DNA of 64,000 nucleotides, from contig JAAOMT010000436.1 in assembly GCA_016748015.1 (NCBI GenBank), forward strand, positions 1,064,033 through 1,128,032, read 5' to 3'. The stretch is from Geosiphon pyriformis uo1 (taxonomy: Eukaryota; Fungi; Glomeromycota). The notes below the pieces were generated by a model. That model worked only from the letters and a program-made list of their open reading frames with translations, was not told the origin of the DNA and did no database searches. Of the stretch, positions 20,969 to 56,774 are shown piece after piece. The position numbers and the translations under genes are program-made. Within the stretch, counting starts at the first letter, position 1. Every line of letters starts with the position of its first letter.

Positions 20969-21750
20969 TGTTATAGATGATTATTTGGGGTCTCAAATTA
21001 AATAACAAATCTGTAACTTGGTGCTCAATATCTTAACAATATTGATATTACTGGCACATTGGTTGTATCTGAAAGTTTTTAGAATGGAGTCTTTTGTATA
21101 ATGGACAAAGATTCAATAATAATGTAGTTGGTTGGTGAGTTGTGTTCCCAATTTCTGTCTTTAGCTTGGTGGTCAGTTTATTCTGACATTCATGCCCTTC
21201 TGGTAAGCTATCCGTTAATATATATATAATTTTACACTTATTTCTGGGTCTTTTACCAGACTATTCGTAACATCAATTACTCAGTGCTTTAATCCTTAAT
21301 CAGTTAATTTTCAACAAAAAAAATAAAAGAAATAAATAAATAAATAAAAATAAAGAAATGAGCCAAGGTGATACACAAGTTAGTATCTTATTAATAGCTG
21401 TGATCAAGAGCTATTGTTCTAGCATAGTTAAGTACTAATTATTATTAACATGAAGTGTTGATAGTAGAGAGTGGATTTGGATAGTAAATGATTTATTTAT
21501 TTAATATTTATAAATAGAAGATTTCTAACTAGAGATTCTGCTCTTTCTACTTCTAACGCTATCACTATATATACATAATTGATGTTCTATGAAATCGCTC
21601 ATATTTCCGAGTGATATGCTATGATTTTTTGAGCAATGTGCCATGATTTCTGACATTGCTCCACATTGCTGAACAATATGCTCACATGCTAAATACTATT
21701 CTCTTATTGGTCTACTATTTTCTATATCTGTTTTTTTTTTATGAGTAACA
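20969..21750 (-). repeat. 3' LTR of element B
   Basis: Direct repeat of 40495-40698 plus 41407-42084; preceded on the minus strand by PPT AAAAGAAGGAGATAA. Confidence 0.92.
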
Positions 21751-21763
21751 TTATCTCCTTCTT

Positions 21764-22174
21764 TTAATATTGAGCTCCATCGAAATCTTTGTTTTGAATT
21801 AATTCTAATACTTTTTTTTCAAGTATTGTTTGTTCAACTTTGTTTTTCATGTCTTCTATTTGTGTATTGTTCATTCTTCCCCATTGGTTAATGGTTATGG
21901 TTTCTATTTCAGAGTGTAATAGTATTTCTGGGTAGTTCCGAAATATGTTGTGTAGTCAGTACATTGTTTTAACATGTAGTGTTGAATTTGTTTTCTTTCC
22001 GATAAATTTTTCAATTTGTTGTATTATGTTTTGGTTAAATATTCTTTTGGATTTGTCGATATACAACTTCTGAATATTCAACTTTTGACTTAATTGGTAA
22101 TAATAGTATAATATTGGAAGTTGTTCTGTCCATTGCTTCTAATTCTCTTTTGTAAGTTCTTCTGTTGGTGCCAT
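21764..22174 (-). pseudogene. Element B ORF3, C-terminal part (joins 32534-32762)
   Basis: Removing insertion C and one CCAT copy gives an in-frame join ...GKIPIM|APTEELTKEN... ending DFDGAQY*. About 211 aa in total, with two internal stops (TAG, TGA) explainable as TGG and CGA transitions. Confidence 0.8.
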
Positions 22175-23072
22175 TGTTACCCAAGTAGAAAAACTGATCC
22201 AAAGTTATAAAAAAACATGACCAAAACATAACATAACACAGAATAGCGTGCAATAATATTGGATAACACATTATAATTTAGAATAATACAGAATAATGCA
22301 TTATAACATAGGATAACACAGAATAACATGTAATAACACCAAATAACATATTATAACATAAGATAACTAGTAATAACATAGAAAAACAAAGCAATTACAG
22401 AAATAGCAAAGCAATAGTTAGCAATAACAGAACAATCAGAAGTAATTCTGTAGAACAAAAAAAATGTATAAAATGAGTAGTTGTAAAAGTTAGAAAAACA
22501 TCCAGAGAGAAAATTAGACTTTCAGAAATCAATTAAACTCTCAGAGTCAATTAGACTCATAGGTTATAATTATTAAATACTCCTTCTTTCAAAGATAGTT
22601 GTTATCAACCGAAATGGAATTATATTAATAAAATATTTCTTTAATTTTTCAAATCCATGTTATTATTCACTACTTAAGCTGCTAGCACAATAGCTCTTGA
22701 TTATGGCTATTGACAGGACACTTATTTTTTATTTATTTTTTTTTTCTCTTTGTGGAGTGGTAACATAAGAAAATTGACTGTCTGAGAATAGATTTCGTGA
22801 TAGCTTGGTAAAAGAGGGAGGCTCCCCCTAGGTTTTGGATATTAACATTATCTTGATAGCTTACCAGAAGGGTAAAAAGACAATGCCAGACCCTAACAAC
22901 TGCACTTGTTAGCTTGGAGAAAAAAGCTCACATTTATGGAAAACATTGCAATTGACGAAAAACAAATTCTGTGCCTTATAACCAAAGAACTCAACAAGTA
23001 AATTCACATCTAGGAATAGACTTTCAAAGACTAATAACCAAGATTAACCCAACAGAATTACGCAGAAGACGC

Positions 23073-23552
23073 TGTTATCGGAGGTTTTTGGTCTCTTTTC
23101 TTAAATGTTGTTGATGCCTGTTTGTTGTGAATTCACATTTTCTGGATGTGGTTGAACCTCCAATAACTGAATTTATCTTCAAATTATCTCTTATAATTTG
23201 AACTGCTGGGCTTATAAGTGGAATGGCCAATTCCTTGCCAGTTACTTTATGTAGTTACATTGTAGTAAATGTCAACTTTTTCCCAGGAATTGCTTGTCTG
23301 GAAGCTCACTAAAAATATGTAGTTACTTTGCTGTGAAAGTCAACTCTTTTATAGGAATCTTGTCTGTAGNNNNNNNNNNNNNNNNNNNNCCTACTTTCTG
23401 TTATACTAATTAGATTATTTTAATTGAATCGTAATATGTGATAATTGATTAAATAATAAATGATAATTTGAAATGATATTAATATACTAATGAATTATAG
23501 GAATTATAAGGGTAATTTCATGCTAATTAATAGCTAAAATTCTACTGGTAAC
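23073..23552 (-). repeat. 3' LTR of element A (collapsed by assembly gap 23370-23389)
   Basis: Both sides of the gap match the two ends of 31493-32465. Confidence 0.92.
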
Positions 23553-24239
23553 ATAATCTCCTTCTCAAGACTGAGCTCCATCAAAGTCCAAGCACTATCT
23601 GTAATATTGAGATAGTGATCTAAAATAATTGAAGTAATCTGGTCTGAAAATTGTTGAAATTTCAGTTCTGTAAGTTTGCCAATATATTGGACTTTCATTG
23701 GTTGCAGTATTGGATTTTGTAGAACATTTTCACAAGTATTAAACAAGTCATAGAGTCTAAGAGCTGCTCTAAGTTTGTAGCGAGTGTTTGTTGGTCCAGC
23801 TGCTGTTTTGAATTCATTGTGGATTTGTTTTTGTATAACTTCAGGAGTGAGATTTGTTGCTTCAAGTTCCAGTTTTCGTTCATAAAGTGTTTTTCCAATT
23901 TGAAAGTATTTATAGATAGGGTGTGTTCATTGTTCTGTTCATTAAGAAGTAATAGAAGTTTTTGTTGCATTGTAGCATTTGGTGGAATGTCAATAGGGGC
24001 AATTAAAAGATTTTCTTTTAGTGCTTGCTTCAAAAGTCTTGGTAATCTATTTTCAGAGTGACTTCTTGTTTTTTTTCTATAGAGTAATAGTTCTGTAAAT
24101 GATTTACTACTGGGGCTGTGATTTCTTTCTGAATGTAATTAATTTGACTTCCATTAATCGTTATAGATAAGTTAGGGAGTGTTTTCAAGGCTAACATTAA
24201 TTTTTGGGATATTTGTTGAATATTTCGGGAAATAATCAT
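23534..24239 (-). pseudogene. Element A ORF3, unknown protein (~235 codons, two frameshifts), between integrase and 3' LTR
   Basis: Three overlapping ORF-track fragments. Frame repaired using the eroded copy at ~55048-55760: MIISRNIQQISQKLMLAL...RKKTRSHSENRLPRLL...IYKYFQIGKTL...RAALRLYDLFNTCENVL...VQYIGKLTELKFQQF. Confidence 0.8.
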
Positions 24240-27200
24240 GATAAAATTGACTAATTATGAAAAGAGAAAATAAAGAAAATGATTTTTGGATATGGGGTTT
24301 TTATTTGTTTTTGGGTTTGGGTGTTTTGTAATTATTTACTATTTTTGTCTTTGTGTTTTTATTAGAAAATTATTGTAAAATTTAAGTGTTCAAGTTTGGT
24401 TGTTGTTCTATTATAATTATTGGTTCTAAATTTTGGGGAATATCTTCAGGATTAATTAAAGAGGAATGTGTACCAATTTGTGGAATTAATGGTTCAGGAT
24501 TGTTTCTGGAATGATAGTGTTTCAATCTGTCTTCATGTGCAATTTTTGCTAATATTTTGTCATCAAGTCTTAACTTATATGATCCATTGCCTAGAATTTC
24601 GTGAATATAAAATGGTCCATCCCATTTGTTTTCAAATTTCCCACTCCATTGTTTTTTAGCCTTAGTTCTGTGTAAGAGAACTTTATTTCCAACTTTAAAT
24701 TCATTGGTAATAGATGGTAATTTGTTGTCATGTCTTTCTTTTTGTTGAGCTTGGGAATGTTCAATATAAGTTGCTGCTATTCTTCTTTTTCCTTCCAGTG
24801 TACTAAAAAGAGTGTAGGCTCTTCTTTGGAGTGTCTTTTAAAAGTTTTCTTCATTGATTGGTTGCACTGGATATGTTTCCACTGTGAAATTAATTGGTAA
24901 TGTTGCTGTCCTTTTATAAGTAAGATCAAATGGTGTGTGTTTCATAGTATCTTGTTTTAGTGTTCTGTATGCTAGTAACACTGATGGAATAAAGATATCC
25001 CATTTCTGCTCAAAGTCTGTTGAGACTTTGGCTAGAGATTTACACAATGTTCTGTTGAAACATTCTACAAGTTCATTTGTTTGAGGGTGATAAAGTGATG
25101 ATAGAGGTTTTTTGATATTGAACCGTTCACAAATTTCTTGTATCAAATTGTTCACAAAATGTGTTTTTTGATCAGATAAGAGTTCAATTGGGCATCTATG
25201 TTTACAGATAATGTCTTCATAGATGAAATTTGCTATTGATTTTGCATCTGCTCTTTGGATGGCTCTAGCTTCAGGCCATTTGGTAAGATAATTCACTGCA
25301 ACTGCAATATAACAATTTCTTTGGGTTGTGATAGGTAATGGTCCGACTAAATTAATTCCAACTCTGTCAAAAGGTTGTCCAACTTTGATTGGATTTAAAG
25401 GTTCTGTAGGGCAAGTTCCTCCTCTTCTTTGACAATTATTACAAGATTCTACATATTGTCGAATATCTTTTTGTATGTGAGGCCAAAAATAATGTTCAAG
25501 GGTTCTTTGAATTGTTCCCTCTTTTCCCAAGTGTGCTGAAGACGGATCTGTGTGCATGTTGTATAAAATTGTTTCTTTTTCATTCTCTTGTACTAATCTG
25601 AGTGGCTGGTTTGGTTTTCTGTGATTTTTATAATAGATTTTGTTCTGGTATATGAAATATTGTTTTAATTGGTGTTGTAAATAGTGTTTTTCACTTGAAG
25701 ACCAGTTTTCTAGCATGGTAAGAGTCTCCAAATAATTTTTAAGATTGCTGTAGTTTCTGGAATCCATTCTTGTTTGATTATTTTTGTTGGTAAGTTGGTA
25801 AGTTGTGGTGGAATTGTTGTTGGTATTAATCTTGTCTCATTCTTGAGAGGCTATTAACATTGGTATGTAGTTTTCCTAGTTTGTAGTATACAATATATCT
25901 GTAGTCTGCTAGGAAATCATTCCATTGAGACTGTTTGGCACTTTGTTCAGTTTTCTTTTTATTGAGCCATTTGAGGCCAATGTTGTCTGTTATTATGTTA
26001 AATTCTTTTCCATTCTTCAGATATTGTTGAAAATGGTTAAGAGCCCAAATAACTGCAACAGCTTCTAATTCAGTTGAGCCATATTTGAGTTCTGTTGGCT
26101 TGAGTATTCTGCTGGCATAGGCAATAACTTGTTCTTGGCCATTTTCATCTAATTGTGATAAGATGGCACCAAATGCTATGTGTGAGGCATCAGTAGCTAA
26201 TTGGAATCATTTGTTAAAGTCTGGGTAAGCAAGAACTGGGGCTGTTGTCAATTTTGTTTTGAGAATTTCAAAAGCTTTTTGTTGTTCTTCAGTCTATTTG
26301 TATAGTACGTTTTTGTTGGTAAGATAATTGAGTGGTTTGGTGATTTCTGAGAATCCTTTTATGAATTTTCAATAGTAAGAGGCTAATTCCACAAATCCTC
26401 TTAGTTCTGTAGTATTTCTGGGGGTTTGAAAGTTTTTGACAGCACTGATTGTTTCTGGATTTGGTTTGATTCCATCTTTACTAACTATGTGTTCAAGAAA
26501 GATCAAGCTTGTTTTTCCAAAGTGACATTTCTCAATATTTAACTTTAATACTGCTTTTCGTAATTGTTGAAAAACTTCTCGCAGATAAATGAGATGGGCT
26601 TCAAAGCTTGGTGAGTATACATCAGTATCATCAAGATAAACAATTACTGATTGCCATAAGAGCTCTTTATAGACAACATCCATAAGTCACTGAAATGTTG
26701 CTGGTGCATTGCAGAGTTCAAAAGGCATAACATTAAACTCATAATTTTCTCCTTGAGTGGTAAATGCTGTTTTGGGTCTATCTTTTGGGTTCATTTCGAC
26801 TTGCCAGTATCCACTTTCCAGGTCTAAAGTTAAAAAGAACTTGGCTTTTTCTAGAGCATCTAGCATGTCATCAATTCTTGGAAGAAAGTAGGCATCTCCA
26901 ATTGTAACACTATTCAGTTGTCTATAATCAACACAGAATCTGATTTTTCCGTTTTTCTTTTTAACTAAAACTACTGGTGAGGCCTAAGGACTTCTTGATG
27001 GTTGAATTAATCTATTATTGAGCATTCTTTGGACCTCTTCTCTGATGAATTGGTGGCTGGCAGGTGGCATTCGATAAGCTTGTTGACGTTTTGGTAGAGC
27101 ATCTCCTGTATGAATCTGATGTTGAACAATGTCTGTTTTTCTCAAGTCATTGTTGTCTTTTGCAAATATATCTGCAAATTCAGCTATCAATTGTTTCAAT

Positions 27201-27674
27201 TGTCTTTGTTGTTGAGGTTCTAAGAGACCCATATTGATTCAAGAGAGTTTTTCTTCCAACAAGTGGTAGTTTTCAGTAGTGGGAATGATATTTGGATTTG
27301 GAAATAGAGTGTACTTTACAATTTCGATAAAATTAGAGACAATTTGAGGGTTTTCATCTTGAAAGATATTGCTGTGTATGATTCCAATTTTTAATTTGTT
27401 TAATAAAACAATAGGGTAATTATTGGGGTTGTAGAATGTAACTCGAAATTTTTTCATTTCTTTGGGAATATAAACATTTGGAATTAATATTTTATGCTTC
27501 AAACAGATTTGTTCATTGGATTCAAAAATTTGTTGTGTAGTGGTGGGTTTTGAGCAAGTGTAAATTTCGTGATGTTCTTCAAAAGGTGAAATGGTAATTG
27601 GCTGAAGAAGTTGAAGAATCTGGTGAGATTTATTTTGTGTATTAAGAATTATGTTTACTGGGACTGTAAATCGT

Positions 27675-28060
27675 CCAGTTGAACCAAAACCTTGAGTTTT
27701 TCTTTTACTTTTTCCCAATTGTTCTCTGTTGTTTACTGATTGTAAACCCGAAATGTTGATTAAGGATAAGTAAATTGCTTGAGCAATTTTTTTAGCATGT
27801 TCAATTTTGAATGATTTGTTTGTCTCATTCTGTAATATGATGGTAATGTTTCCAGTGTATCCTGCATCTATAACTCCTCCTTTAATATTGATTCCTTTGC
27901 TTGCCAATGATGATCTGGAGGCAATTTGAACCATTGCTCCTGGTGGAATTTCAAGAGCAATTTTGAGATTGATTTTTGTCAAAGACTTTGGTTGGAGAAT
28001 CAAAGTATCTTTTCCTGGGTATCTTAGGTCATATCCAGCATCAATTTTGTGTGCTTTTTC
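27675..28060 (-). other. dUTPase domain within element A pol (between protease and RT)
   Basis: All five trimeric dUTPase motifs: AGYDL, SRSSLA, GVIDAGYTG, KIAQAI, RKTQGFGSTG. Confidence 0.95.
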
Positions 28061-31000
28061 TGGTCTGATTTCTTGGCCATGGTTGTCAAAATATTTAAGT
28101 TGTAGAGGTGGTTGCTTTTCAAGAAGATAGATAGGAGTGGTTGGTAGTTTTTCTACTAGTTCAGATACTCCAAATTCGATTTCATTTTCATCATTCTCAT
28201 TTGGCAGAGGAATGCTAAGAGCATAACATTCTAAACACCATTGGTCATTATAAGGCATAACACATTCTTCACACAATTGAATGTTCATTTGCTCTAATTG
28301 TTAAATTTGAGCTTTTTTGGTCGGATATGTGTGGCTTGCAATTTGGTGGTAGGTTTCTACTTCATCTTCATAATCGAATCCAGCTAATTCCATGGTATAC
28401 TCAATAAATTCAGCTTCTTTCATTTGGCGAACATCTTCTTGGGTGGCTCTATTGATCAATGCCATTGCTAGGTCAAAAATTATTTCAGCATCATGAGGGT
28501 AGTGGTAAAGTTTATTGAGAACACTGTTGTATGTTGCATCAAATAGTGTTCCTCTTCTGACTTTTTCCGAAATTAATAGAGCATATTGACAGGTTTGATC
28601 ACATACTCCTCCTCTCATTGCTATATCAATCCAATTGCATTCTTCTGGTAGCATTTCTTCACATGTAAAGCAAGGTGTGTTGTCCTATTTTCCACTTCTT
28701 TTTGGAGATCCAAATCGTTCTCTATGGCATGCTTTGCAAAAGTAACAGGTATGAGTTTCATATTTCTTTTCTGGAGAAATACATGCTCCCATTGATGAAA
28801 GTTTTTTGTTGCAATCTTTGCATTTGAGTGGAATATAGGGTGGTTGTTTCCATGGTTCTGGTGTAAAATATCTAATTTTCTTCCATCCCTTTAATTCTTC
28901 AAAAATCTCTTGTTCGGTTTTTTCAGCCCAATTGGATGTTGATCCAAGAGCCATGTAGGTTTCAGTAAGTGGCATTTTTTTCTCCTTTTCAAATTCAAAT
29001 ACTGGAGCTTTTTCTGATTGTTTGTTAAAAGTACCACAGATTGCAGATACTATGGTATATTGTCCTTGGTATGAGATTTTAAGTTCTTGAGTTTCCCAGT
29101 TCAGGTTTGCATTGGCCTTGAGAAGCCAATCATTTCCGACTAGAGCTTGGTATTGGGGTGCATCCATAACAAGAACTTTAACTGGAATGGTGATTCCATC
29201 AATTGAAAAAGGGAAATCATCAATTTCTCCTATTGGAGTCTTCTTTATACCATCAGCTATAACAATAACTGTTTGAGCTGGTCTGTTTACATTTTGTTTG
29301 AGTTGTTGCATTAGCTGGTAAGTAATGATACTTCCAGCTGATCCACTATCTAAGATTAAGCGAATGGGTTTTCCTTCCACTGTAGCTTCTGTGTACATGG
29401 CAGTAATTGCTTTCTGTTCATTAACTGCTGCATTACTAAGCAGAAATGGTGATTCATTTGCTTCAAATTCAAATGAAAATATATTTGACAGATTAGCATT
29501 TTGGGCAATTTGAGCTAATGGGATGGTATGGTTGGAAGGGTTTGATCTTAGTGCTGTAACTTCATTTTCAGAAAGTGCAGTTTGTTGAAAATTCGATTCC
29601 TCTGATATTGTAAGATAACTGAGTTAAGTGTGATAGTGATTGGGTCTTTGCTGACCCAAATTTTGGGGAACCAACTGGTTATTTGGATTGATTCTGTTGT
29701 GGTTATTCTGCAATTGATTTTGGGGTGTGAATTGGTTATGTTGAACCAATCTTCTTGCTGGTACTTAATATTGTTGAATGGGTGGTGTCTAATATGGCTG
29801 AATTGGTAAAAGTTGCTGATATTGTTGCTGTATTGATTGTAAAGCTGGTGGATAGTAGTTTTGATTTTGTGGTCTTGGTGAATAATAGGTTGGTGGTGGA
29901 AATTGGTAATAGGATTGTTGTGGTGAAGAGTAACGTTGATTACTCCTGTTTTGTTGGTCTCTTTGTAATTTCCTACAATCTCGTTTCCAGTGTCCTGGAA
30001 TTTCACAATAATGACAATTTTTAGATTGGTTGTTGGATGGTAATCCAAAATTGTTTTGGTTGCATCGTTGTGGTAGTTGATATCTTTGTGGTTGTTGCTG
30101 CTATTGTTGTTGGTTTGTAAAATAGCTTTCAACTTTCTTTGTGAGTTGGTCTATCTTTTCTTCAGCTGCTGAGCTGGTTTCTCTAATTGCAAGGTTTACA
30201 AACTTGGTGTGATTTGCTTCTTCCATTGCCATCTCATAGCTCTTTGCATGTCTAATAGCAATTGCTAAGTCTGCTGGAGCATGTGGATGGACTTTCTTAA
30301 TCAGTTTGTCTTTTAACCCTGCTATAAACTGATTCAGAATTTGAGCATCAGAATAGTAGTCATTGGTTTCTAATTGTCGAATTTGTCTGAGAAGTTTGTT
30401 AAATCTTCCAAGATAGGTCATAACAGATTCAGATGTTTCTTGTTTAATATTGCGAAAGCAGTTTCTGAGAGTGATAGAAGTATTGTTGTCAGTAAATTGT
30501 TGTAAAAAAGCATCTTTGAATGCTTGCCAGTTTTCAAATGGTTCTTCTAAATTTTCAAACCATTCTCCTGCTGTTCCTTGGAGAAAGTAGGGAATTGCTT
30601 TGAGCATTCTTGCTGCAATCCAACCATTTGCATCTCCTGCTTTTTGAACCTTGTTAAGCCATTCTTGAGGACTGGTATCATTGTTTTCACCAGTGAATTC
30701 TGGGATTTTTGCAATGTAAGCAGTTGTCATTTCTTCTTCATTTTCTGTAATTTCTTCTGGTTCTGATTCAGTTTCTTCACTTTTCAAGCTTTCTGAGTGA
30801 TTACTTTCGTTTTCCTGTAAGTAATCAATAATATTGGCACTTGTTGATATTGGTTCCTGCTGTTGAGCAGGATTTCTAGGTGACTGAAAATCTTCTGGTC
30901 TGGAAAAACGGCTAAGTGATGAACTTGGTGTTTGTGGTTGAACAAGTAAAATTAGAAATAGTGTAATAAAAAGTGGTAATTTGACACTGGTTCCTTGTTC

Positions 31001-31474
31001 AAGTGTTTGCAAGTGTTTGGCAGTTGTCTTTTGTAGTGTTGGAGTATTTGGAGTGGTTTTTGAGTATTGTTTCAATCTTTGTTTGTCTTTGTTGCTTGTT
31101 TCTGTCTCTGATTCAAAGTCAAAAGAGTATTTAGACTGTACTGGGTATTTTTCTTCACAATACTCAATAATATTAAAATTAAGTTCTTGGAAGTAGGTAG
31201 CAAGTGTTTCACTGTTCAGGTCTTCTGTTCCCAATTGTGAATAGTGCACTAAATTATTGTAGAAATTGCTTCTAACTTCTGAAATGTTGTAGTTTTCAAA
31301 AAGATAATTGTTAATGTGGTTTTCAATGTATTGATATACTGATTTCTTTACAACTTCAATTCCGTCTGGAATGTTGAATCTTTGCTTGCAGTGGGTGTAA
31401 ATTGACTGGTAATACTCTAGAGTTGCTGTGTCTGGTGTGGTCACCACTTTGAATTTGTTGTTGCTGTATTATTT

Positions 31475-31490
31475 CCATGGGAGAGCACCA
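31475..31490 (-). promoter_or_regulatory. Primer-binding site of element A (TGGTGCTCTCCCATGG)
   Basis: TGG-starting sequence 2 nt inside the 5' LTR; primer tRNA not assignable by eye. Confidence 0.85.
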
Positions 31491-31492
31491 AA

Positions 31493-32465
31493 TGTTACCA
31501 AAGGTTTTTGGTCTCTTTTCTTAAATGTTGTTGATGCCTGTTTGTTGTGAATTCACATTTTCTGGATGTGGTTGAACCTCCAATAACTGAATTTATCTTC
31601 AAATTATCTCTTATAATTTGAACTGCTGGACTTATAAGTGGAATGGCCAATTCCTTGCCAGTTACTTTATGTAGTTACATTGTAGTAAATGTCAACTTTT
31701 TCCCAGGAATTGCTTGTCTGGAAGCTCACTAAAAATATGTAGTTACTTTGCTGTGAAAGTCAACTCTTTTATAGGAATCTTGTCTGTAGAGTACTCTAAT
31801 AATTGTAATAAGAAAAGAAAAGAAAAATAAAAGAAATGTAAAAGAAATAAGTTTTTATCAAGAGAACCATTTTCTATCCAGGCCTGGAGTCACTAATAGT
31901 TTACTGAAATTGGTAGCTAATCAATTTCAAAATGTTAGTTGGGTTTTAGGGGGTTTTTCCAAGTACAATAATTAAAGAATTTGGTTTTTCGAATTATTTG
32001 ATATTTATTTCTTTTTGTGTGTATAGGAACGGTTTTAAAAGATAAATCTAAAGTAAGATACATTTTCCAGAAGAAAAAAGCTCTTCTTTTATACAACTTG
32101 TTGTAGTACTAGTCTATGAACTTGCACTTTTTCTCTTTGCTCAAATTTCGGTGAACTAAAGATACATTTTAATGAACTACAAGTTATTTCGCTGAACTAT
32201 TAATTAATTTGGATGAACTATTCATAATTTCGGCGAATTTCTGTAAATTTCGGTGAATTTTTGAATGTTACAAAGTTCAGAATATTGTGTAATTTGATCA
32301 TCCTACTTTCTGTTATACTAATTAGATTATTTTAATTGAATTGTGATATGTGATAATTGATTAAATAATAAATGATAATTTGAAATGATATTAATATACT
32401 AATAAATTATAGGAATTATAAGGGTAATTTCATGCTAATTAATAGCTAAAATTTTACTGGTAACA
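31493..32465 (-). repeat. 5' LTR of element A (973 bp)
   Basis: TGTTACC...GGTAACA termini; repeat of 23073-23552 and inverted homolog of 55730-56774. Confidence 0.95.
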
Positions 32466-32533
32466 ATGCATCCCCAATAATTAAGAACACCAAACATTAC
32501 CAGTTCTATTACCCACCAAGTTTACCTATAACA

Positions 32534-32762
32534 CCATAATAGGTATTTTCCCAAAAGTGTTCTTTACTTTTTCTATTATATTATCTGACCAGTTTTTATC
32601 ATTCTTTGGTAACCGCTGATATGGTGTATTCTTTGTCTTTCTTTTGATGTTTTGATAGCAAATTGTTTGGTTGTTAATGATAATTTCCATGTTTAAAGGT
32701 TGTTGACTTAAGGCCTGGAATAATTGTTGAGCTATAGTGTAAATATGATTTGGTATTTCCAT
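32534..32762 (-). pseudogene. Element B ORF3, N-terminal part
   Basis: MEIPNHIYTIAQQLFQALSQQPLNMEIIINNQTICY... starts ~60 nt after the pol stop; cut by LTR C at the CCAT TSD. Confidence 0.8.
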
Positions 32763-32822: not shown

Positions 32823-35800
32823 TTACATGTTTGGTTCAATGATTATGATTGGTTCCAGATCTCATAAAATCTCATTTGGTTGAACCAGTATTTATTATAT
32901 TCTTAATTGTAGAATGTTATTAGTAAATGATGATGCTATTTAGTGATATGGTTTCAGTCAATCACCATGTGCTACTTTGGCTAAGATTTTGTTATCCCAT
33001 CTTAGTTTATAAGCTCCATTTCTAAGAATTTCTTCTATGTGAAATGGTCCATCCCATTTGGGATCAAATTTTCCACTCCATTGTTTTTCCGCTTTGGTAT
33101 GATGTAGAAGTACTTTGTCTCTAATCTTGAATTCAACTGGTTTATCTGGTAATTGGTTATCATGTTGTTTTTTTTGCTTTTCTTGAGACTTTTGAATGTT
33201 ATTAGCTGCTTTTTGTTGTCTGTTTTCTAGTGTTTCTATTAGGTCATATGTTTTTCTCAACAATGTTTCTTGGAAATTAGCTTCTGTTATTGGTTCTATT
33301 GGATATGTGCTGACTTCTCTCTCCACTGGTAATGTTGCTGTCCTACTATATACCAATTCAAATAGTGTTGCTTGTGTAGTATCTTGTCTTATTGTTTGAT
33401 AAGCAAATAATACTAATGGTATAAACAAATTCCATTTATCTTGGTTTTCTTGACTGATTTTGGCAATTGTTTCACACAGTGTTCTGTTAAACTTTTTGAC
33501 TAGTCCATTTGTTTATGGATGATATAGTGATAATAATGGTCTTTTTATCTCAAATCTTTGACTTAATTCTATTAATGTTCTATTCACAAAATGAGTTCCT
33601 TGATCTGATAGTAGTTCTTTTGAACATCTGTGTCGACATATCAAATCTTGATGGATGAATTTGGCAACAAATTCTGCATCTGCTCTTTGAATGGCTTTTG
33701 TTTCTGGCCATTTTGTAAGATAGTTCATGGCTACTGCAATATATCTGTTGCCTCTGCTGGTGATTGTTAATGGTCTGACTAAGTTAATTCCAATGTGATC
33801 AAATGATTGTCCTACTTTGATTGGTCTTAATGATTCACTTGGTCTTGTTCCACCTCTTTTTTGACAAGCATTACAATTTTGAATATATTGGATGATGTTT
33901 GGATACATTGATGGCCAATAATATCTCTTTCTGATTCTTTTCATGGTCACTTCTTTATGAAAATGTTCTGTTGTTGGGTCTAAGTGCATGTTGAATAATA
34001 TTGTCTCTTTCTCTGGTTCTGTGATTACTCTAGTTGGTTGATCTGGATTTCTTCTGTTCTTCCAGTAAAATATATTTTGATGGTTAATAAAATTTTTTGA
34101 TTGTTGTTTTATGTTCTTTTGTTCTTTTTGAGATAATTTCTCCTTGAACAATTGGGTATTTATATAATATTAAAGTTGTTGTATTTTTGTATATTTATCT
34201 TTTGTTATATTTTTGGTTGGAATGTTTTTAGACTTGTCTCATTCATAACAGTCTGTTGGCATTTTTATTGTCTTTTCCCTTTTTATAATGTACTGTATAA
34301 TTAAATGGTGAAAGTTTTATTTTCCATCTGGCATGGTAATTGTTTGTAAATTCTTGTTTCTGGATTGAAGTCAATCCTTTGTGATTAGTGTACACTTCAA
34401 ATTTTTGACTCAAGTATTTTTTCCATTTGATAACAGCCCAATAAATAGCTAAGTGTTCTAGTGCTGGAGTTCTATAGTTTTTCTCAGCTAGACTTAAGTT
34501 TCTACTGGCATAAGCTACTGGATGTTCTCTTTCATCTGATTTTTTCTGTAATAATACTGCTCCTAATGCTTGACCTAATGTATCAGTGGTGATTATGAAT
34601 GGTTTGCTATGATCTGGATACATCAATATTGGAGCTTGGATAAGCTTTCTTCTTAATGTGTTAAATGCTTCTTGTTGAGCTTCAGTTCATTCATACTTTA
34701 TATTCTTGGTCTGTAGATGGTGAAGTGGCTGAGCCAGTTTTGAAAAGTCTTTGATAAAACGGTGATAATAGTCTGTGAAACCTAAAAATGCTCTTAGTTC
34801 TGTCAAGTTAGTTGGTACCAGAAAGTTTTTAACTACTTCAATCTTGTCTGAATCCATTTTGATTCTATTTTTGCTCACTACATGTTCCAAAAACTTGAGT
34901 TTGGTTTTTCCAAAGAAACATTTGGTTGTATTTAGTTTTAATTCTGCTCTTTTTAATCTTTCGAACACTTGTTAGAAATAATGCAGATAATTATTAAATG
35001 TTTTTGAGAACACATTGATGTCATTCAAGTATATGACTACTGATTTCCATAGTAATCCAGTATAGACAATTTCCATAAGCCATTGGAATGTTGCTGGAGC
35101 ATTCATCAAGCCAAATGACATGACTTTAAACTCAAAATTTTTTTTTCTTGTGGTGAATGCTGTTTTTTCTTTGTTGGCTGAATTCATGGCTACTTGCCAG
35201 TAACTACTATCTAAATCTAGTGTTGAGAACCATTTATTTCCTTTAAAAGCGTCGAATAGTTCTTGGATCTTTGGAGTTAGATAGCTATCATCTTTTGTTA
35301 CTTTATTCAGTTTCCAGTAGTCTACACAAAAACGAATTTTTCCATTTTTTTTATGAACCAATACCACTGGTGATGACTATAGACTCATTGATGGCTGAAT
35401 TAGCCTATTGTTAAGCATTTGGTTAATTTCTTGATGAATGATCTTATGGCTAACTGGTGGTACTCTGTATGCTCTTTGTTTAATTGGCATTGTATTTCCA
35501 GTCTTAATCTGATGCTAAATGATGTTGGTTCAGCCAAATTCATTTTCGCTAGCAAAGATGTCATTGAAATTGTTGAGTAACATTTTGAGTTGCATCTGTT
35601 AAAGTGAATCTAGATTTCTCATGTTCATCTGTTCTAATTGTTTTAGTTGGAGCAAATAACATTTACTTTTTCTGTAAATGGTTTGTGATGTAATGTCCAC
35701 ATATCCACAAAGCTGTGGAAAATCTGGAATGTGATTTGGTGGTTGATCCTCAACTTCAGTAGTTAAATATCCAATAATAATTCCCTTTGGTATTTCAATA

Positions 35801-38800
35801 ATCTTTTTAATTGCATAATAGATAGAAATTTTGATGTTTTTGGGGCTTTTGGGTGATATGTAGAGATTGGTGAGTCCAATCTCCCCTGATTTACAAATAG
35901 TGGCTTCTGCTTTAAACAATTGAGCTTGATTCCTTACTTCTTTTTTTATGGCTAATATATACTGGTCATATGGCGGAATGGAAATTGTTTGACGGATTGA
36001 GATAATTTCTCTTTTGTTAACAATTTCTTCCTCTGCCATATTAACTGGTATATCTATTCTACCTGTGGATTCAAATCCCTATATCCCTCTTGCTGTTATC
36101 CTTAATTCTTTCCTGTTTTCTACTGATACTAATTTAGCTATTTTCACCAAAGGCAGGAATATTGCCTGTGCTATCTTTTCATTTGGCTCTATGGTATAGG
36201 CCTTTTCTGAGTCATTTTGTAGCATAGCAATGATATTTCCTACATACCCTGTGTCAATTATTTCTCCTCTGATGTTGATTCCTTTTTTTGCTAGGCTATT
36301 TCTAGATGTTAATTGAACCATAGTTGTTGTTAGAATTTCTAGAGCTATTTTGAGATCAATATATGTGCACAAATTTGGTTTTAATTTGATGGCTTCTTTT
36401 CCCAGATATCTCAAATCAAACCCTGCATTGGTATCATGCACACATTCTGGCATGATACTTTTATTATTGTTACTATACCATTTGAGTTCTTGCTCCTTAG
36501 ATAGATCAGAAAGTGCAATGTATATTTCAGGGTTTGAATTGGAGTCTGAATCGTTGATATTTTCATTGTCATATTGAACAGAGCTGAAAACAGTGTTTTC
36601 CTTATTATTGTTGTCAGAGTTTGAATCAGGATTGAAAAGTTGATTCCAATTCTGATGTGCAGTTGCTCATTGGTTCATCTTCTTCTGAGATCATGTAGAT
36701 CATGCATGGTGGTGGATTGTAAATGAGGTCACACTTATTACAATACTGGAAGTCACATGGGATCAAACAGTGGTCACATAATCAGGTGTTTATTTCTTCT
36801 AAGCATTGTTCCTGCTCTTCTCTGGTGGGTGCTAATTACTGGTAATGTTCATGAAATTCCTCTGGGTTGTCCTTAATGTTGCCAAAGATGTTGAAAGTTT
36901 GGACGTATTCAGGTTCAAGAAGAGATAAAGGGTTGTTTTTTATTTTCAGTAGTTTACTGGTTGTTACACCTTTTGTTTTCGCATATGTCATTCTCCAGAG
37001 TTCATGTTCATTGTAGAAATATCTTTTTAATTGTTACAATGCTCTTTTTCAGATGTTATTAATAGAAGTTTTTTTGCATACCTAGTTGTTTATTAAGATG
37101 GTATACTGGCATGTCTTATTACATATCTTTCCTCACCCAGGAATGTCATTCCACATTCTTTCGTTAGGCAAGATAGTTTCACATGCGAGACATGGTTGGT
37201 TGTCCCATTTTCCTTGTCATTTCAGTCATCCAAAGCATTCTATGATGCATGGGCGGCAATAGAATTTTGTTGTTATGACATATTCTTTATCATTGCCATA
37301 ACAAGTGCCTATTGATGACAGTTTCTTGCTGCAATTAACATACTCTAATTTTGGTCAACAATAATTGGATGGTTGTAATAAAGTATAAGCATATGGACTG
37401 TAAGTGCTGCTGGTGAGGATAGTTTCTTCTTTTTTCTTCTTTCTCTTTCCTTTGTCAGTTTTTTTCTACTTTCAGGTTGTAGATTCATCTTGATCATTAT
37501 CTATTTCCCAGGCTTGGCTGGTATTCCAAGTAAGTTTTTTGTTCTCCTTCTCTTTTCCTTTGTCATCTCAAGAAAGTATCAGTAGTAGCTCGTTATGGTT
37601 TTCATCAGCCCAAGAGACTTGGTATGCTTCCCAGGTAGGTTTTTCTTTGTCTTCCTCGAATTTGATAAGTGAGGTTGTCAAATTGGTGGTTTTGAAATGG
37701 CCACACATGGCTGGTACATGTGTGTGTTGACCATTTTGGCTCAGTTGGAGCTCTTGCATTGTCCAGTCCAGTATGGCATTGGTTTTAGATAACCAGTCAT
37801 TCTCTACTAATACCTGATATTGGGTTGCTTCCATCACTAGAACTTTAATGGGAATGATGATGCCATTAACTTCAAAAGGGAAGTCATCAATCTCACCAAT
37901 AGGAGTTTTGGTTGCTCCATTGGTGGTTATGATTCTGGCACTGGCAGTACAATCAACTCGGCAACCTAATTGGTCCATGAGTTGTTTTGTAATGATGCTG
38001 CCAGCTAATCCACTGTCTAGAATCAGTTTGATGGAGTGGCCATCAACTTTAGCATTAGTGTACATGGCAGTAATGGGTTTTTCTTCCAGAGTGGCTCCAC
38101 TAAATAACGGTGTGGTCGACGGTTCTTTGAGTTTAAATGGGAAGATGGCATCCAGTAATTCGTTCTCAATAATAGTAGCTGGCAAAATGTTACTGGTAAG
38201 TGTTGGGTGTTGGTTGGCTTTCAGGTTATTGGGTTGAGCATCTTTTGGGGTAATCAGTAGACTTAAATAGTTCTGGGTGTTGGGCATACCCAGTGTCCAA
38301 ATTCCATTGTTAAGATCTTGCTGATTGTGTAGAAGAACTAAGAATTGGTTGGTGGACTACCATCAATGATCTCCAGCTTTGTTGAGTCAATCTCGGCCTT
38401 TGAGTTCTGTTTTGAGATAAGTTCTGTGGTGGTGTTTGAATTTGTTGGGGCTGATATATTACCTGAGGCTGTGGCTGATAAATGGGTTGTGGCTATGGCT
38501 AATAATTTGCTGGTGTCATTGGTTGATAAATTGGTGTTTAATATACTGGTGGTTGATAAGGTGGCTGCTGCATCATAGGTAGGTAATTCTGATGATATGG
38601 TTCTGAGTTTGGTGGGTTATTTGGAATTTGAAACCAGCAATCAGGGTTTTGATATTGATTTCCCGATTATTGGTTATTTAAGTGATGGCAGCAATCGATT
38701 TGTAGATGTCCTTGTTTACCACAATAGTGGCAAACACGTATTTCCTGTTGCCACTGTTGATTGGTTGACAATAATGAACATGACTGATTCTGGAAACGAT

Positions 38801-40490
38801 TTGCATTTCCAGAATTATTGCATCATTGTAGTAGTTAATAAATTGCATGATTGTCAATTAAGTATTTCTCTAATTTTTGATTGATGGAATCACTAAATTG
38901 TTTTAATTTGGAATCCAATTCAGATGATCCATTTATTACTAGATTAACGGCTTGGGCATGGTTAGCTTCGAGTTCAGCAGCTTCAAAATCTCTGGCATTT
39001 GTGACAGTTGCTTACAGATCAATGGGATGCATTGGACATATGCATTGCAGAATGCTACTGCATAATCCGCGAATAAACTGATTTAGAATCTGGGCTACTG
39101 TGAAATAATTGGGGTCAATGGCTTGGATATGGTGCAGATTTCTGTGGAAGCATCCTAAGTAAGTAGTGACTGCTTTATTTTCTTCTTGTTTAATGGTAGT
39201 GAAGGTGTTTGCTAGTCTGTTAATGCTGTTATTATTGCTAAAGTATCTTAAGAACTCTATTTTGAATGCATTAAAATCTTGGGGTTTGTTGACTTGGCAG
39301 TATTCTGAAAAAAATATGAGATGGCTTGTATGGCTTTGGCATCATTCCATCCATTAGCTGCAATGGCTTTCCCCACATCATTTAGCCATACTTGGGCATT
39401 GTTCTTTTTGCCAGTGAATTTTTTGAGTTTGGCTATTGGTGTGTATGCTATTAGATCTAAGTTGGGTTGTGGTGGTTGTTGAAGTGGTACTAGTGGCTGT
39501 TGAATCTGCTGGTGTGGTTGTTGTAGTGGCTGGCCAATTGGTTCAACTGGTGGTAGATTAATGATAATAACAGAAGATAGGTCTGGTTGATTAATTAGAT
39601 TGGAATTCTGATTGTTCTGATTTGGCAGTGGTTGAATATTCAGAGTTTTGATTTCCGGGTTTTTTAAATTTGAATTTTGCTGGGTTTGAAGATTCAGGAT
39701 TCCAAATTCCGAGTTTTCTGTGATTGAGTTTTAGTAAGTAAATTCTTGATCTTTAGATTTTTTTTCTTCCTCTTCTTCTGATTCTGTTATTTCCCAAAGA
39801 CTCGTGTTTTCAAAATCTGGTTAAGATGGTGGTGATTGGAATCCTGATGGCGTTGGCGATCATAATTTAAATTCTTCAAAGTAATCGCCATATGGTCCTA
39901 ATAACTCTGTTTTTTATTGTTTACTTTAAAATGAGAAGTGTCTAAAGATTGATGTCATGTTTGATATGGATGCGTCTGTTGATAAGATGTTGATGGCACT
40001 TCCGGGTGTATAATGGTATGATAGATGAGTGGGTGATTCAACTTGAGTTTTCTTCCAATTGGGTGGTTGGATTTGTTTTGGTGTTACTGCTGGAGTTTGC
40101 AATTTTCCTTTGCCTTTATCTGCGTAGGTGATGGGAAATTGTTGTTGTGTATACTTTTCAATAGTTTGATTGATTTCCCTAATAATTGGTGCGAAACTGT
40201 AGTTTCTTGGTAAGCTGGTATGTTGAAATAATTCTGTATAAAAATTTTCTCTTGTGGATTCAATGTTAACTGTTCCTCCTAAGCAGTCTGTGATTTTATT
40301 GTTGACATAAAAGTTAAAGACTGATTCCACTGGGAAATAATTATTGTTCAACCCTAATTGTTAACTGTACTATTGGAATAAGGATTTGGCAAATCCTAAA
40401 TGGTTTGTTTCTATGATTTCTGATTTTGCTGCTTTTGGATGATTGTTAATGGTGCTGGTTCTCTGTAGGATTATATCTCACAGAGAACAC
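32823..40490 (-). pseudogene. Element B gag-pol polyprotein, many stops and frameshifts
   Basis: Gag; CCHC CHYCGKQGHLQIDC ~38695-38745; protease LILDSGLAGSII ~38000; dUTPase; RT (RFCVDYWKLN, YLND); RNase H (HPVAYASRNL); integrase (KWPETKAI, SDQGTHF, KFDPKWDGPFHI); C-terminal LEPIIII shared with A. Confidence 0.92.
36060..36445 (-). other. dUTPase domain within element B pol
   Basis: AGFDL, SRNSLA, IIDTGYVG, KIAQAI, RGI*GFESTG (eroded motifs I-V). Confidence 0.92.
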
Positions 40491-40494: not shown

Positions 40495-42084
40495 TATTAC
40501 AGATGATTATTTGGGGTCTCAAATTAAATAACAAATCTGTAACTTGGCACTTAATATCTTAACAATACTGATATTACTGGCATGTTGGTTGTATCTGAAG
40601 GTTTTTAGAGTGGAGTGCTTTGTATAATGAACAAAGATTCAATGATAATGTAGTTGGTTGGTGAGTTGTGTTCCCAATTTCTGTCTTTAGTTTGGTGGTG
40701 TTACAGTTTAAGAATTTAGAAAAAAGAATCATAAAAATAATACAAACTATTCAATCATAATATAGCACAGTAATAATCTTAGAAAGGTAATGATTAACAT
40801 AGTAGCAAACACCATCTTGCAATAGTGGCAAGCACCAGTTCACAATAGCAGCCAACACCAACTGGTGATAGCAGCAAACACCAGGTTGAAATATCAAAAA
40901 GAAAGTATTTTCTCATAGAACTACAAACATGTATATATACNNNNNNNNNNNNNNNNNNNNNNNNNNNNNNNNNNNNNNNNNNNNNNNNNNNNNNNNNNNN
41001 NNNNNNNNNNNNNNNNNNNNNNNNNNNNNNNNNNNNNNNNNNNNNNNNNNNNNNNNNNNNNNNNNNNNNNNNNNNNNNNNNNNNNNNNNNNNTAGAAAAG
41101 TGCTAAAGACCATTAACATTCTGTGTTTCTAGATTAGAGAAACACATCAGGCAATTGCAAGGATAGCCTCAGAGAAGACCCCAGACAGTGGGTAGATTTC
41201 AGTTCAGCCTCTGAAAAGGAGTACATAAACACACACAACAATCAAGAATTAAAGAATAACTTACATCGCAACAGTAAAAAGAAAGCCTTCAGTGTAACAG
41301 TGACATTATCACACAAATAGAACTGAGGAACTCACGAAAGACTGATTGCAATTAAAGTGGGATATCAGCAATTAAATATAACAAGAAAACCATCCCGTAA
41401 CAGTGGCCAGTTTATTTTGGCATTCGTGCCTTTTTGGTAAGCTATCCGTTAACATATATATAATTTTACCCTTATTTCTGAGTCTTTTACCAGGCTATTC
41501 ATGATGTCAATTACTCAGCACTTTAATTCTTAATCAGTTAATTTTCAACAAGAAAAATCAAAGAAATAAATAAATAAATAAAAATAAAGAAATAAGCCAA
41601 AGTAATACACAAGTTAGTATCTTATCAATAGCTGTAATCAAGAGCTATTGTTCCAGTGTAGTTAAGTACTAATTATTATCAACATGAAGTGTTGATAGTG
41701 AAGAGTAAATTTGGATAGTAAATGATTTATTTATTTAATATTTGTGAATAGAAGATTTCTAACTAGAGATTCTGCTCTTTCTATTACTAACGCTACTGCT
41801 ATATATACATAATTGATGTTCTATAAGATTGCTCACATTCCTGAGTGATGTGCTATGATTTCTTGAGCAATGCTTATATTGCTGAACAATGTGCCCTAAT
41901 TTTCTAACATCACTCCACATTGCTGAGCAATGTGCTGTGTTTTCTGATATTGCTCCACATTATTGAGCAATGTGCCATGATTTCTGATATTGCTCTACAT
42001 TGTTGAGCAATATGCTCATGTGCTAAATACTATTCTCTTATTGGTCTACTATTTTTTATATCTGTTTTCTTTTTATGAGTAACA
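40495..42084 (-). repeat. 5' LTR of element B, interrupted by insertion D
   Basis: Matches 20969-21750 on both sides of 40699-41402; has extra copies of a ~37-bp unit at ~41865-42020. Confidence 0.9.
40699..41402. mobile_element. LTR insertion D (solo LTR or collapsed element; spans N gap 40941-41092)
   Basis: TGTTAC...GTAACA termini; TSD GTGG at 40695-40698 and 41403-41406; absent from the other B LTR. Confidence 0.85.
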
Positions 42085-42978: not shown

Positions 42979-43089
42979 ATCCCCTGGTCACAATGAGAGC
43001 ATTGAGTAGCCAGAGAAATACACTTCCCTTTTTCCCTTTTCCTTTTTTGTTTTTTTGTTATTTCTTTCAATACCCCTTTGTCCACTGCT

Positions 43090-50954: not shown

Positions 50955-51685
50955 GAACTGATCCAAAAATCTGATTTAATTACTTATATAATTGATATTA
51001 ATTTAAAACTTTAAACAATTTGAAATTTTAATTTAATTATTTATATAATCAATAATAATTTAAATCTTGAAACAATTCAAAACTCTGACTTAATTACTTA
51101 TATAATTAATAATAATTTAGAGCTTGAAACAATTTAAAACTTCAATTTAATTACTTATAAAATTAATAATAATTTAGAACTTGGAACAATTCAAAACTCT
51201 AATTTAATTATTTATATAATTAATAATAATTTAAAACTTAAAACAATTTGAAATTTTAATTTGATTATTTACAAAATTAGTAATAAGTTAAAATTTGAGA
51301 CAATTCAAAACTCTAACTTGATTACTCATATAATTGATAATAATTTAGAACTTGGGATAATTTAAAACTCTGACTTGATTATTTACAAGATCAATAATAA
51401 TTTAAAACTTAAAACAATTCAAAACTTCAACTTAATTATTCATAAAATTAATGATAATTTAGAACTTAGAACAATTCAAAACTTCAATTTGATTACTCAT
51501 ATAATTAATAATAATTTAAAACTTAGAACAATTTAAAACTATAACTTAATTACTCACAAAATTAGTAATAATTTAAAACTTAAGACAATTCAAAATTCTG
51601 ACTTGATTATTTACACAATTAATAATAATTTAAAACTTGAGACAATTTGAAACTTTAACTTAATTACTTACATAATTAATAATTA
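50955..51685. repeat. Tandem array, 57-bp unit, ~12-13 diverged copies
   Basis: Unit approximately AAACAATTCAAAACTCTGACTTAATTACTTATATAATTAATAATAATTTAGAACTTG; AACAATT recurs every 57 nt (51014, 51071, 51128...). Confidence 0.9.
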
Positions 51686-52948: not shown

Positions 52949-53738
52949 TGTTAGAATTAGCTTAAGAAGTAATTGCTTGTTTTTGTGATTTATTAAATAA
53001 AGAAATAATTAAGAAGCACAACAATATCTGTTATTAATTCTAAAAATTGCCAAGTTGAAGCATAAAATAATAGCAGTAGTGTTATTTTGTTAACAATTAT
53101 AGACTATTCCTCTATTTTCAGATTTTCAAAAAAAATTTATAACTGTAATTTTTATAAGACTGATTATGCACATTGAATCTTTACTCATTCAATTTACTTT
53201 TTTATTGTAATTTTCTCTTTGATTATTTCTATAAAAAAAAATAATAAAATAATAAAAAAATAATAAAAATAATAAAAAGAGAATAATGAAATAAGCCAAG
53301 ACAAAAGAAAGTTAGTATCTCGTTAATAGCTATAATTAAAAGCTATTGTTCTAGGATGGTTAAATATCAGTAATTATCAACATGAATTGTTGATAAATAG
53401 AAAGATGAATTGCAATATTTTAATAACTATTTTATTAATATTTGATGTTTTTACTTTAAGTTATAAAATACTATCATATGAAAGGATAAGTATAGGATTA
53501 AAACTGAAGATTCTAAGCTAAAGATTCTGTTTTTTTCTGCTTTTAATGCTACTGTTATATATACATAAATTTTATTGTACAAGATTCTTTGAATTTCTTA
53601 ATTTTCTAGCCAGAAATTCTAAAATTTCAGGAATCCTGTAATTTTTTGAGAGAAATTCTGGAATTCCACTTTTACTATGTTTTATTTTGATTGGCTAATT
53701 ATGTATTAATATATAATTTTTATATTTTATGAGTAACA
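52949..53738 (-). repeat. B-family-related LTR (E), eroded
   Basis: Ends TATGAGTAACA like the B LTRs; shares AATAGCTATAATTAAAAGCTATTGTTCTAG and GATTCTG...TATATATACATAA blocks. Left end TGTTAG at 52949 is tentative. Confidence 0.7.
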
Positions 53739-56700: not shown

Positions 56701-56774
56701 CTAATAAACAGAAATTAACAACAATTAAACATTAAACAACATTTAAAAAAAGAGACCAAAAATTTTTGGTAATA
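53739..56774 (+). mobile_element. Hypermutated 3' half of an A-family Gypsy element (integrase, ORF3, PPT, 3' LTR 55730-56774)
   Basis: Colinear with the reverse complement of ~25560-23553 and with the A LTR; differences dominated by G->A and C->T. Confidence 0.9.

What the first reader, a model, noticed from the sequence alone, without database searches (positions are those of the whole stretch)
23534..24239. Conserved, non-env third ORF in the env position of two divergent fungal Gypsy elements
Seen: A (23534-24239), B (32762-32534 joined to 22174-21764 once insertion C is removed) and the eroded copy (~55048-55760) each carry a separate ~210-235 aa ORF between the pol stop and the PPT/3' LTR. 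A and B are too divergent for easy DNA alignment there, yet the proteins align in four blocks: QQISQKLMLALKTLPNLSITINGSQINY / YTIAQQLFQALSQQPLNMEIIINNQTICY; RKKTRSHSENRLPR / KRKTKNTPYQRLPK; IYKYFQIGKTL / LYYYYQLSQKL; AALRLYDLFNTCENVL...VQYIGKLTELKF / TMYRLHNIFRNYPEIL...INQWGRMNNTQI. There is no obvious signal peptide, furin site or TM helix, so it is not a classical Env, and it has a basic NLS-like patch. Inference: a selected accessory protein of unknown function, e.g. nucleic-acid-binding transactivator, anti-silencing factor or nucleus-to-nucleus movement factor in coenocytic hyphae.
Basis: partly seen in the sequence, partly recalled or inferred. Interest (0 to 1): 0.85.

Follow-up and report, generated by a model that had tools for sequence, protein, structure and literature searches.

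The report
Accessory third gene of mycorrhizal retrotransposons
Jumping genes of mycorrhizal-type fungi carry, where retroviruses keep their envelope gene, a conserved extra gene for a small helical protein of no known family, which likely binds the element's own DNA to keep it switched on, though binding is untested and the copies in this window are broken.

Summary
The third gene is real, but no copy in this window is intact. A has two one-base deletions, B two stops and a nested insertion, and the eroded copy nine stops. Intact 211-225 aa relatives are Geosiphon pyriformis proteins. A and B are homologous (z 6.5-8.5), and A versus the eroded copy shows third-codon-position bias like integrase (31/51, p 5e-5). 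Among 111 metagenomic loci of the same Gypsy clade, one has the long form and 34 a shorter ~145 aa form (profile match E 1.5e-6), with dN/dS 0.04-0.28. The family spans 440 clusters at 50% identity, including Rhizophagus, Glomus, Dentiscutata, Gigaspora and Cetraspora. One sub-clade lost the gene; others hold a Nudix, Mrr-like or helix-turn-helix-like gene in that slot. A confident model (pLDDT 90) is all-helical with no significant fold match, no membrane helix and no conserved catalytic set; 14 basic and 7 aromatic columns are conserved. Best reading: a dispensable nucleic-acid-binding accessory factor, most likely acting on its own LTR (0.4). It is not Env, and the NLS and nuclear-movement ideas are unsupported. 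This scan noted similar genes in other genomes before; I could not confirm they are the same family.

The parts
23534..24239 (-). ORF3 of element A, long form (235 codons in register with intact relatives); broken by two single-base deletions; the last codons run through the PPT into the 3' LTR
23534..23926 (-). open C-terminal part of A's ORF3, holding the domain shared with the short form
24240..24381 (-). 142-nt spacer between the pol stop and the ORF3 ATG; pyrimidine tract followed by an AG about 14 nt before the ATG (candidate splice acceptor, inferred)
23554..23566 (-). polypurine tract of A, inside the ORF3 frame
23073..23553 (-). 3' LTR of A (shortened by an assembly gap at 23370-23389)
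24382..31468 (-). decayed gag-pol of A: capsid, protease, dUTPase, RT, RNase H, integrase with SH3 tail; no chromodomain hit
31475..31490 (-). primer-binding-site-like sequence of A (tRNA not identified)
31493..32465 (-). 5' LTR of A; 8 differences in 460 aligned bases from the 3' LTR
32534..32762 (-). 5' part of ORF3 of element B
21764..22174 (-). 3' part of ORF3 of element B, two internal stops; ends just before the PPT
22175..23072 (.). left part of solo LTR C, inserted in B's ORF3 and itself split by A
32466..32533 (.). right part of solo LTR C (begins with A's target duplication)
20969..21750 (-). 3' LTR of B
32944..40360 (-). decayed gag-pol region of B (protease, dUTPase, RT, RNase H, integrase)
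40495..42084 (-). 5' LTR of B (holds an assembly gap)
55047..55760 (+). ORF3 of eroded copy D (A-type), one frame with 9 internal stops
53736..54915 (+). integrase remnant of D
55730..56776 (+). 3' LTR of D

Best explanation
This is a conserved but dispensable third gene of a Gypsy retrotransposon clade of mycorrhizal-type fungi, and its small helical protein likely binds the element's own LTR DNA and would keep or raise the element's transcription against host silencing. Shown: position between pol and the PPT, two homologous sizes, purifying selection, loss in one sub-clade, other genes in the same slot in others, no membrane helix. Predicted: an all-helical fold (three long helices plus a small C-terminal three-helix unit). 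Inferred: it is not an enzyme (no conserved catalytic set); it binds nucleic acid (conserved Arg/Lys and Tyr/Phe); the target is DNA of its own LTR; the effect is activating. Also inferred: the short form is made by translational coupling, since its start lies at or near the pol stop, and the long form from a spliced or internally started message. I put 'real selected accessory gene' at about 0.97, 'binds nucleic acid' at about 0.65 and the LTR-DNA regulator reading at 0.4.
For: Selection: non-decay substitutions A vs D fall 10/10/31 on codon positions 1/2/3 (p 5e-5), integrase 19/12/39, LTR control 34/31/23; dN/dS 0.04-0.28 in 9 informative pairs of 10 among short forms. Homology long to short: Prob 90%, E 1.5e-6; score 41.3 against at most 19.7 in 60 column shuffles; a profile with no long-form member ranks A's ORF3 first in the window's six frames (E 0.0028). 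Dispensable: 12 tree rows without it form one clade (100/99) inside the carriers, and 12 of 20 such loci have a PPT-like tract within 90 nt of the pol stop. Chemistry in 141 short forms: 14 columns at least 50% K/R (R52 96%, R45 86%), 7 aromatic columns, median pI 8.8, best His column 60%, best Cys column 35%, hydropathy at least 1.6 in 0 of 141. Model pLDDT 90, pTM 0.84. Three loci hold a 127-aa protein with weak helix-turn-helix hits in the same slot, ending at the PPT. Rhizophagus transposons are CG-methylated and produce small RNAs (10.1101/2021.03.30.436303, passages), and the window's elements are CpG-depleted (o/e 0.07-0.19 against 0.92), so there is silencing to resist.
Against: No match to any DNA-binding family or fold: Foldseek best E 0.6 (PDB) and 0.13 (viral), VIA best Z 6.6, with generic helical and MIT-like bundles on top. 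The only sequence hint in the PDB is ribosomal protein uS13, which binds RNA (E 0.061). The DUF1016_N lead failed. 38% of short forms have pI 8 or less. The long form lacks the helix carrying R45 and R52 in recognisable form, and its own model is poor (pLDDT 44). The helix-turn-helix hits of the replacement gene are under Pfam's cut-offs, and other replacements are enzymes (Nudix, Mrr-like), so the slot does not imply regulation. No binding site was identified and surface exposure of the conserved residues was not computed.
Confidence: 0.4

Rival explanations
1. The protein binds the element's RNA (export, packaging, translation or shielding from small-RNA silencing), using a C-terminal unit like the helix-two-turn-helix of uS13.
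For: The best PDB sequence hit of the deep profile is uS13 over profile positions 84-146 (E 0.061). The model has three short helices there. The basic and aromatic conservation fits RNA as well as DNA. Gypsy loci in Rhizophagus produce small RNAs (passages).
Against: The uS13 hit is not significant, and uS13 is not among the listed fold matches (that part of the model was barely tested alone).
Confidence: 0.25
2. The protein is an adaptor that binds host or element proteins through an MIT-like three-helix bundle (particle assembly, trafficking, entry into neighbouring nuclei).
For: Several MIT domains and importin/HEAT repeats are among the top VIA rows (Z 4.6-6.6). Plant transposon accessory proteins are predicted to have many host contacts (PMC13547354, passages).
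Against: Z under 8 is background for helical bundles. The short form has no NLS-bearing extension.
Confidence: 0.15
3. The protein is an integration cofactor that works with integrase and helps choose target sites, standing in for the absent chromodomain.
For: It is always next to integrase in the loci examined; two database gene models fuse it to integrase (P0243, P0165); ORF3 and integrase-tail identities correlate (r 0.42, p 0.0015, 15 loci); the three target duplications in the window fit a decayed central CpG.
Against: The gene is a separate frame after the pol stop in the loci examined, so the fusions may be annotation artefacts. Linked genes correlate by descent alone. A whole sub-clade transposes without it.
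Confidence: 0.1
4. It is an envelope-like or cell-to-cell movement protein.
For: It occupies the env position.
Against: No hydrophobic segment in 141 of 141 short forms or 5 long forms; small; all-helical; no glycoprotein match. Two records that run past the usual stop have hydrophobic tails (P0139, P0148), read from LTR-side sequence.
Confidence: 0.03
5. It is not a gene: an AT-rich spacer that gene finders mis-called.
For: All three window copies are broken; no RNA evidence was obtained.
Against: Third-position bias, dN/dS far below 1, 440 clusters and a confident model.
Confidence: 0.02

Closest known systems
Variable ORF3 cargo of bdelloid rotifer LTR retrotransposons (PMC5408684; abstract and outline seen)
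   Same: Third ORF after pol with interchangeable non-env contents; lineages with dUTPase.
   Different: Their cargoes are env-like, GDSL esterase or DEDDy exonuclease. This protein matches none in Pfam, has no conserved catalytic set, and is fungal.
Additional ORFs and PR-RT dUTPase in fungal Ty3/Gypsy elements (PMC2864245; passages seen)
   Same: A figure legend names an additional ORF of unknown function; dUTPase lies between protease and RT in PosPlaTy3-5, as in A and B.
   Different: The passages concern other fungi and mostly chromoviruses. No sequence comparison was made, and the supplements were not read.
Plant accessory proteins: Athila domain, ATLANTYS ASY2-like domain, VANC anti-silencing factors (PMC13547354; passages seen)
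   Same: Lineage-specific, non-catalytic transposon accessory proteins; VANC is the functional model for the best explanation (its mode of action is partly recalled).
   Different: No Pfam hit to these families in 141 + 17 members; VANC belongs to DNA transposons; anti-silencing was not tested here.
Env of errantiviruses and retroviruses (PMC13524379; passages seen)
   Same: Same position, after pol and before the 3' LTR.
   Different: No membrane anchor, much smaller, all-helical soluble model.
DUF1016_N / YhcG N-terminal domain (PF17761; PMC1189080 passages) and uS13 helix-two-turn-helix
   Same: Weak sequence hints over the core helices (E 0.0028 in one member, 2 of 17 at any level; uS13 E 0.061).
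   Different: Profile comparisons with 44 YhcG domains gave E 0.02-0.36 and Prob under 3%; no fold support for either.

Membership tests
Ty3/Gypsy LTR retrotransposon (elements A, B) | Order PR-RT-RNase H-integrase between LTRs, with PBS, PPT and target duplication | tested here: met
Chromovirus | Chromodomain at the integrase C-terminus | tested here: not met
   Only SH3_Tf2-1 hits the last pol frame of A, which then stops; tails in the 111 loci are mostly about 58 aa after the motif
Env / env-like ORF3 | Position between pol and the 3' LTR | tested here: met
Env / env-like ORF3 | Transmembrane anchor and hydrophobic signal segment | tested here: not met
   hydropathy at least 1.6 in 0 of 141 short forms; at most 1.06 in 5 long forms; hydropathy scan only, no signal-peptide predictor
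Env / env-like ORF3 | Conserved furin site | tested here: inconclusive
   R-x-[KR]-R occurs somewhere in 41 of 141 basic proteins; position not checked
DUF1016_N (PF17761) | Score above the Pfam gathering cut-off (32.8 bits) | tested here: not met
   best 18.2 bits; not among the 25 families listed for 141 short forms
DUF1016_N (PF17761) | Profile-profile homology | tested here: inconclusive
   E 0.02-0.36, Prob 0.2-2.3%
S13-like helix-two-turn-helix | Fold and sequence match of the C-terminal unit | tested here: inconclusive
   E 0.061; not listed in fold searches of the whole model; unit not folded alone
MIT domain | Three-helix bundle match above background | tested here: inconclusive
   Z 4.6-5.5, rmsd 3.4-5.3 for most rows, tied with unrelated bundles
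Enzymatic ORF3 (GDSL, DEDDy, Nudix, Mrr) | Family hit and conserved catalytic residues | tested here: not met
   no such Pfam hit; only D10 and the PPT-encoded E143 exceed 80% acidic; no His/Cys cluster
Transposon anti-silencing / trans-activator (VANC-like in function) | Sequence-specific binding to own element and loss of silencing | not testable with these tools
   needs binding and reporter assays

The most novel reading that the evidence does not exclude
Glomeromycotan Gypsy elements carry their own LTR-binding trans-activator or anti-silencing protein of an undescribed fold, held in a swappable slot that overlaps the polypurine tract. It may help explain the LTR expansion of Geosiphon (41% of the genome, PMC11952901, passages) despite CG methylation.
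Probability: 0.3. Interest if true: 0.8.

Novelty: new variant of a known kind. Interest (0 to 1): 0.55.

Why it matters
Extra genes after pol are known, but this family is large (440 clusters), conserved across several mycorrhizal genera, has no Pfam or fold match and was not found in my paper searches. It comes with a natural comparison: sister elements that have it, lack it or hold another gene in its place. If it counters silencing, it would be a fungal retrotransposon counterpart of plant VANC and a handle on how transposons expand in mycorrhizal genomes. It also explains hundreds of 'hypothetical proteins' in these annotations as transposon genes.

Tried and rejected
Plain Nei-Gojobori dN/dS for A vs D (0.36) was set aside: an off-frame control gave 0.30 because C-to-T/G-to-A decay dominates. 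The long-form model was too poor to use (pLDDT 44) and its Foldseek search found nothing. DUF1016_N lead: not supported. phrog_23683 hit 9 of 17 members (best E 8e-5) but only A-type ones; no member could be fetched from 5 genomes, so it is untested. NCBIfam gave nothing meaningful. tblastn of one long form against phages and plasmids: no match. Three scans of viral contigs: nothing. The 228-aa gene in the slot of L112 does not match the long form (E 0.26). A recalled link to ParB-type HTH domains was not supported by the passages of PMC4738411. Homodimer job: no verdict, score 0.00, alignment not used, fold uncertain. No RNA holder listed, so expression and splicing are untested. The ESM Atlas gave no answer. 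No whole genome is held. A fibrillarin search against phages was uninformative. Look-ups by sequence in earlier findings: 0 of 3 found a match. Paper searches that found no description of this family. Repbase and subscription papers, including the Geosiphon genome paper, are not in the library, and no supplements were read.

Full report
Setting. The window holds nested, decayed Gypsy elements. A (23073-32465, minus strand) has capsid, protease, dUTPase, RT, RNase H and integrase with an SH3 tail. It sits in solo LTR C, which sits in the third gene of element B (20969-42084). D is an eroded, 5'-truncated A-type copy. All 120 listed of 151 homologues of A's C-terminal part, and all 11 of B's, are hypothetical proteins of Geosiphon pyriformis. 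I infer that the host is that fungus or a close relative.

Observation. A's 706 bases are two short of 236 codons, and other copies carry the two missing bases. B falls into one frame of 211 codons with two stops once C is removed; D has nine stops. Intact relatives are 221 and 225 aa (A type, annotated from the second ATG) and 211 aa (B type). A and B types are homologous: z 6.5-8.5, 47 identities in 192 aligned positions. The direct profile comparison was weak (E 0.0038). The gene ends in or beside the polypurine tract, so its last residues are constrained by the DNA signal.

Selection. Simple dN/dS between A and D was useless because an off-frame control was as low. Leaving out the decay-type transitions, substitutions fall 10/10/31 on codon positions 1/2/3 (p 5e-5), in both halves of the gene (p 0.003 and 0.0008), like integrase (19/12/39) and unlike the LTR (34/31/23).

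Relatives. A motif from the integrase tail found 111 metagenomic loci, all with an integrase 34-62% identical to A's. L092 has a full 230-aa long form (E 2e-23). Thirty-four loci have a shorter gene of about 130-165 aa starting at or near the pol stop, in three cases overlapping it by four bases. Nineteen of those loci built the profile, so their own scores are circular. Of the 49 loci with at least 450 nt after pol: 19 short, 1 long, 20 none found, 3 helix-turn-helix-like, 2 Nudix, 2 cysteine-rich, 1 Mrr-like, 1 unrelated. Long and short forms are homologous (Prob 84-90%, E 8e-6 and 1.5e-6). The short-form profile picks A's gene as its best hit in the window, and 52 of 133 long-form proteins score E under 0.01 at a nominal database size of 1000. 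Short forms have dN/dS 0.04-0.28 in nine pairs, which are not all independent; a tenth pair had one change. The profile finds 440 clusters at 50% identity. Named members are from Rhizophagus irregularis, Glomus cerebriforme, Dentiscutata erythropus, Gigaspora margarita and Cetraspora pellucida; most are unnamed. Loci were picked by integrase, so I did not test whether every family member lies in a Gypsy element.

History. In an integrase tree of 36 rows (15 of 51 dropped for too little downstream DNA; midpoint root only), A, B and L092 form a clade (99/94), short forms are spread over the other side, and the 12 rows without the gene form one clade (100/99) among short-form carriers. In 12 of 20 such loci a PPT-like tract follows pol within 90 nt; one has it at 265 nt and seven were not called. 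The simplest reading is an old gene with one loss and several replacements; no root or clade test was run. The gene is therefore useful but not essential.

Protein. The long-form model failed. The short-form model from 141 sequences is confident (pLDDT 90, pTM 0.84): eight helices, three long ones at 32-48, 52-67 and 84-97, and a small C-terminal unit. Foldseek found nothing at E 0.001 in PDB or viral models, and VIA's best Z was 6.6, which is background for helical bundles; this does not prove a new fold. Pfam has no recurring hit. Fourteen columns are mostly Arg/Lys and seven aromatic; there is no His/Cys cluster and no hydrophobic segment. Weak hints to uS13 (E 0.061) and DUF1016_N did not firm up.

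Mechanism. Shown: a linked, selected, dispensable, soluble protein. Inferred: non-enzymatic and nucleic-acid binding (about 0.65). I commit to binding of the element's own LTR to sustain transcription (0.4). The reasons are that transposons in these fungi are CG-methylated and targeted by small RNA (10.1101/2021.03.30.436303, passages), the window's elements are CpG-depleted, and a helix-turn-helix-like gene fills the same slot in one lineage. Each of these is indirect. RNA binding (0.25), a protein adaptor (0.15), an integration cofactor (0.1) and Env (0.03) are the rivals. How the gene is expressed is inferred only: coupling to the pol stop for short forms, and a pyrimidine tract plus AG kept among A-family copies for the long form. 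B shows no such tract.

Known context. Non-env third genes are described in rotifers (PMC5408684, abstract and outline), fungi (PMC2864245, passages) and plants (PMC13547354, passages; PMC9289625, search listing only). My searches found no description of this family. Repbase, subscription papers and supplements were not seen and could hold one. Three earlier notes of this scan describe similar genes in other genomes with a similar reading. My reading was recorded before I saw them, sequence look-ups did not link them to this family, and they are not independent support.

Verdict. A real, apparently undescribed accessory gene family in a known kind of slot; function unproven. New variant of a known kind, interest 0.55.

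Noticed in passing
L104:1876-2886, L140:2223-2501, L120:2-214: Nudix-domain gene directly after pol in related Gypsy elements (Pfam E 1.6e-10, 3.9e-7, 7.9e-5).
   Followed up: partly
L129:762-1460: Mrr-like restriction-endonuclease-domain gene right after pol (Mrr_cat E 5.9e-8); no PPT called, so membership of the element is unconfirmed.
   Followed up: partly
L138:1506-1886, L151:671-1051, L156:445-825: 127-aa gene with a weak C-terminal helix-turn-helix signal filling the slot up to the PPT.
   Followed up: partly
L112:1157-1840; L135:2961-3380; L118:3019-3255; L084:312-647: An unrelated 228-codon gene in the slot of the sister lineage of A/B, and cysteine-rich ORFs after pol.
   Followed up: no
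window 53736-55740 against 23549-25562: Copy D has lost about 45% of its cytosines to T on both strands in CA, CC and CT contexts and 61% in CG: RIP-like in scale but without dinucleotide preference. RIP signatures were reported absent in Gigaspora margarita (passage).
   Followed up: partly
window 23069-23072/32466-32469; 22171-22174/32534-32537; 20965-20968/42085-42088: The three 4-bp target duplications are all compatible with a present or decayed central CpG; three sites are too few for a test.
   Followed up: partly
window 27242-28300 and 36082-36666: dUTPase between protease and RT in both A and B.
   Followed up: partly
window 56420-56623 and 41884-42015 / 21630-21754: Tandem repeats inside the LTRs (68 nt in the A/D type, 40 nt in B, with different copy numbers in B's two LTRs): candidate binding sites, untested.
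   Followed up: no
P0236 (Gigaspora margarita, 495 aa): Two copies of the ORF3 domain in a longer protein; possibly a context outside Gypsy elements.
   Followed up: no
window 50847-51773; 58220-61524; 43000-49700 and 61584-64000: A 57-nt tandem array, a long (about 1.2 kb) inverted-repeat structure, and two LINE-like elements with endonuclease, RT and RNase H.
   Followed up: no
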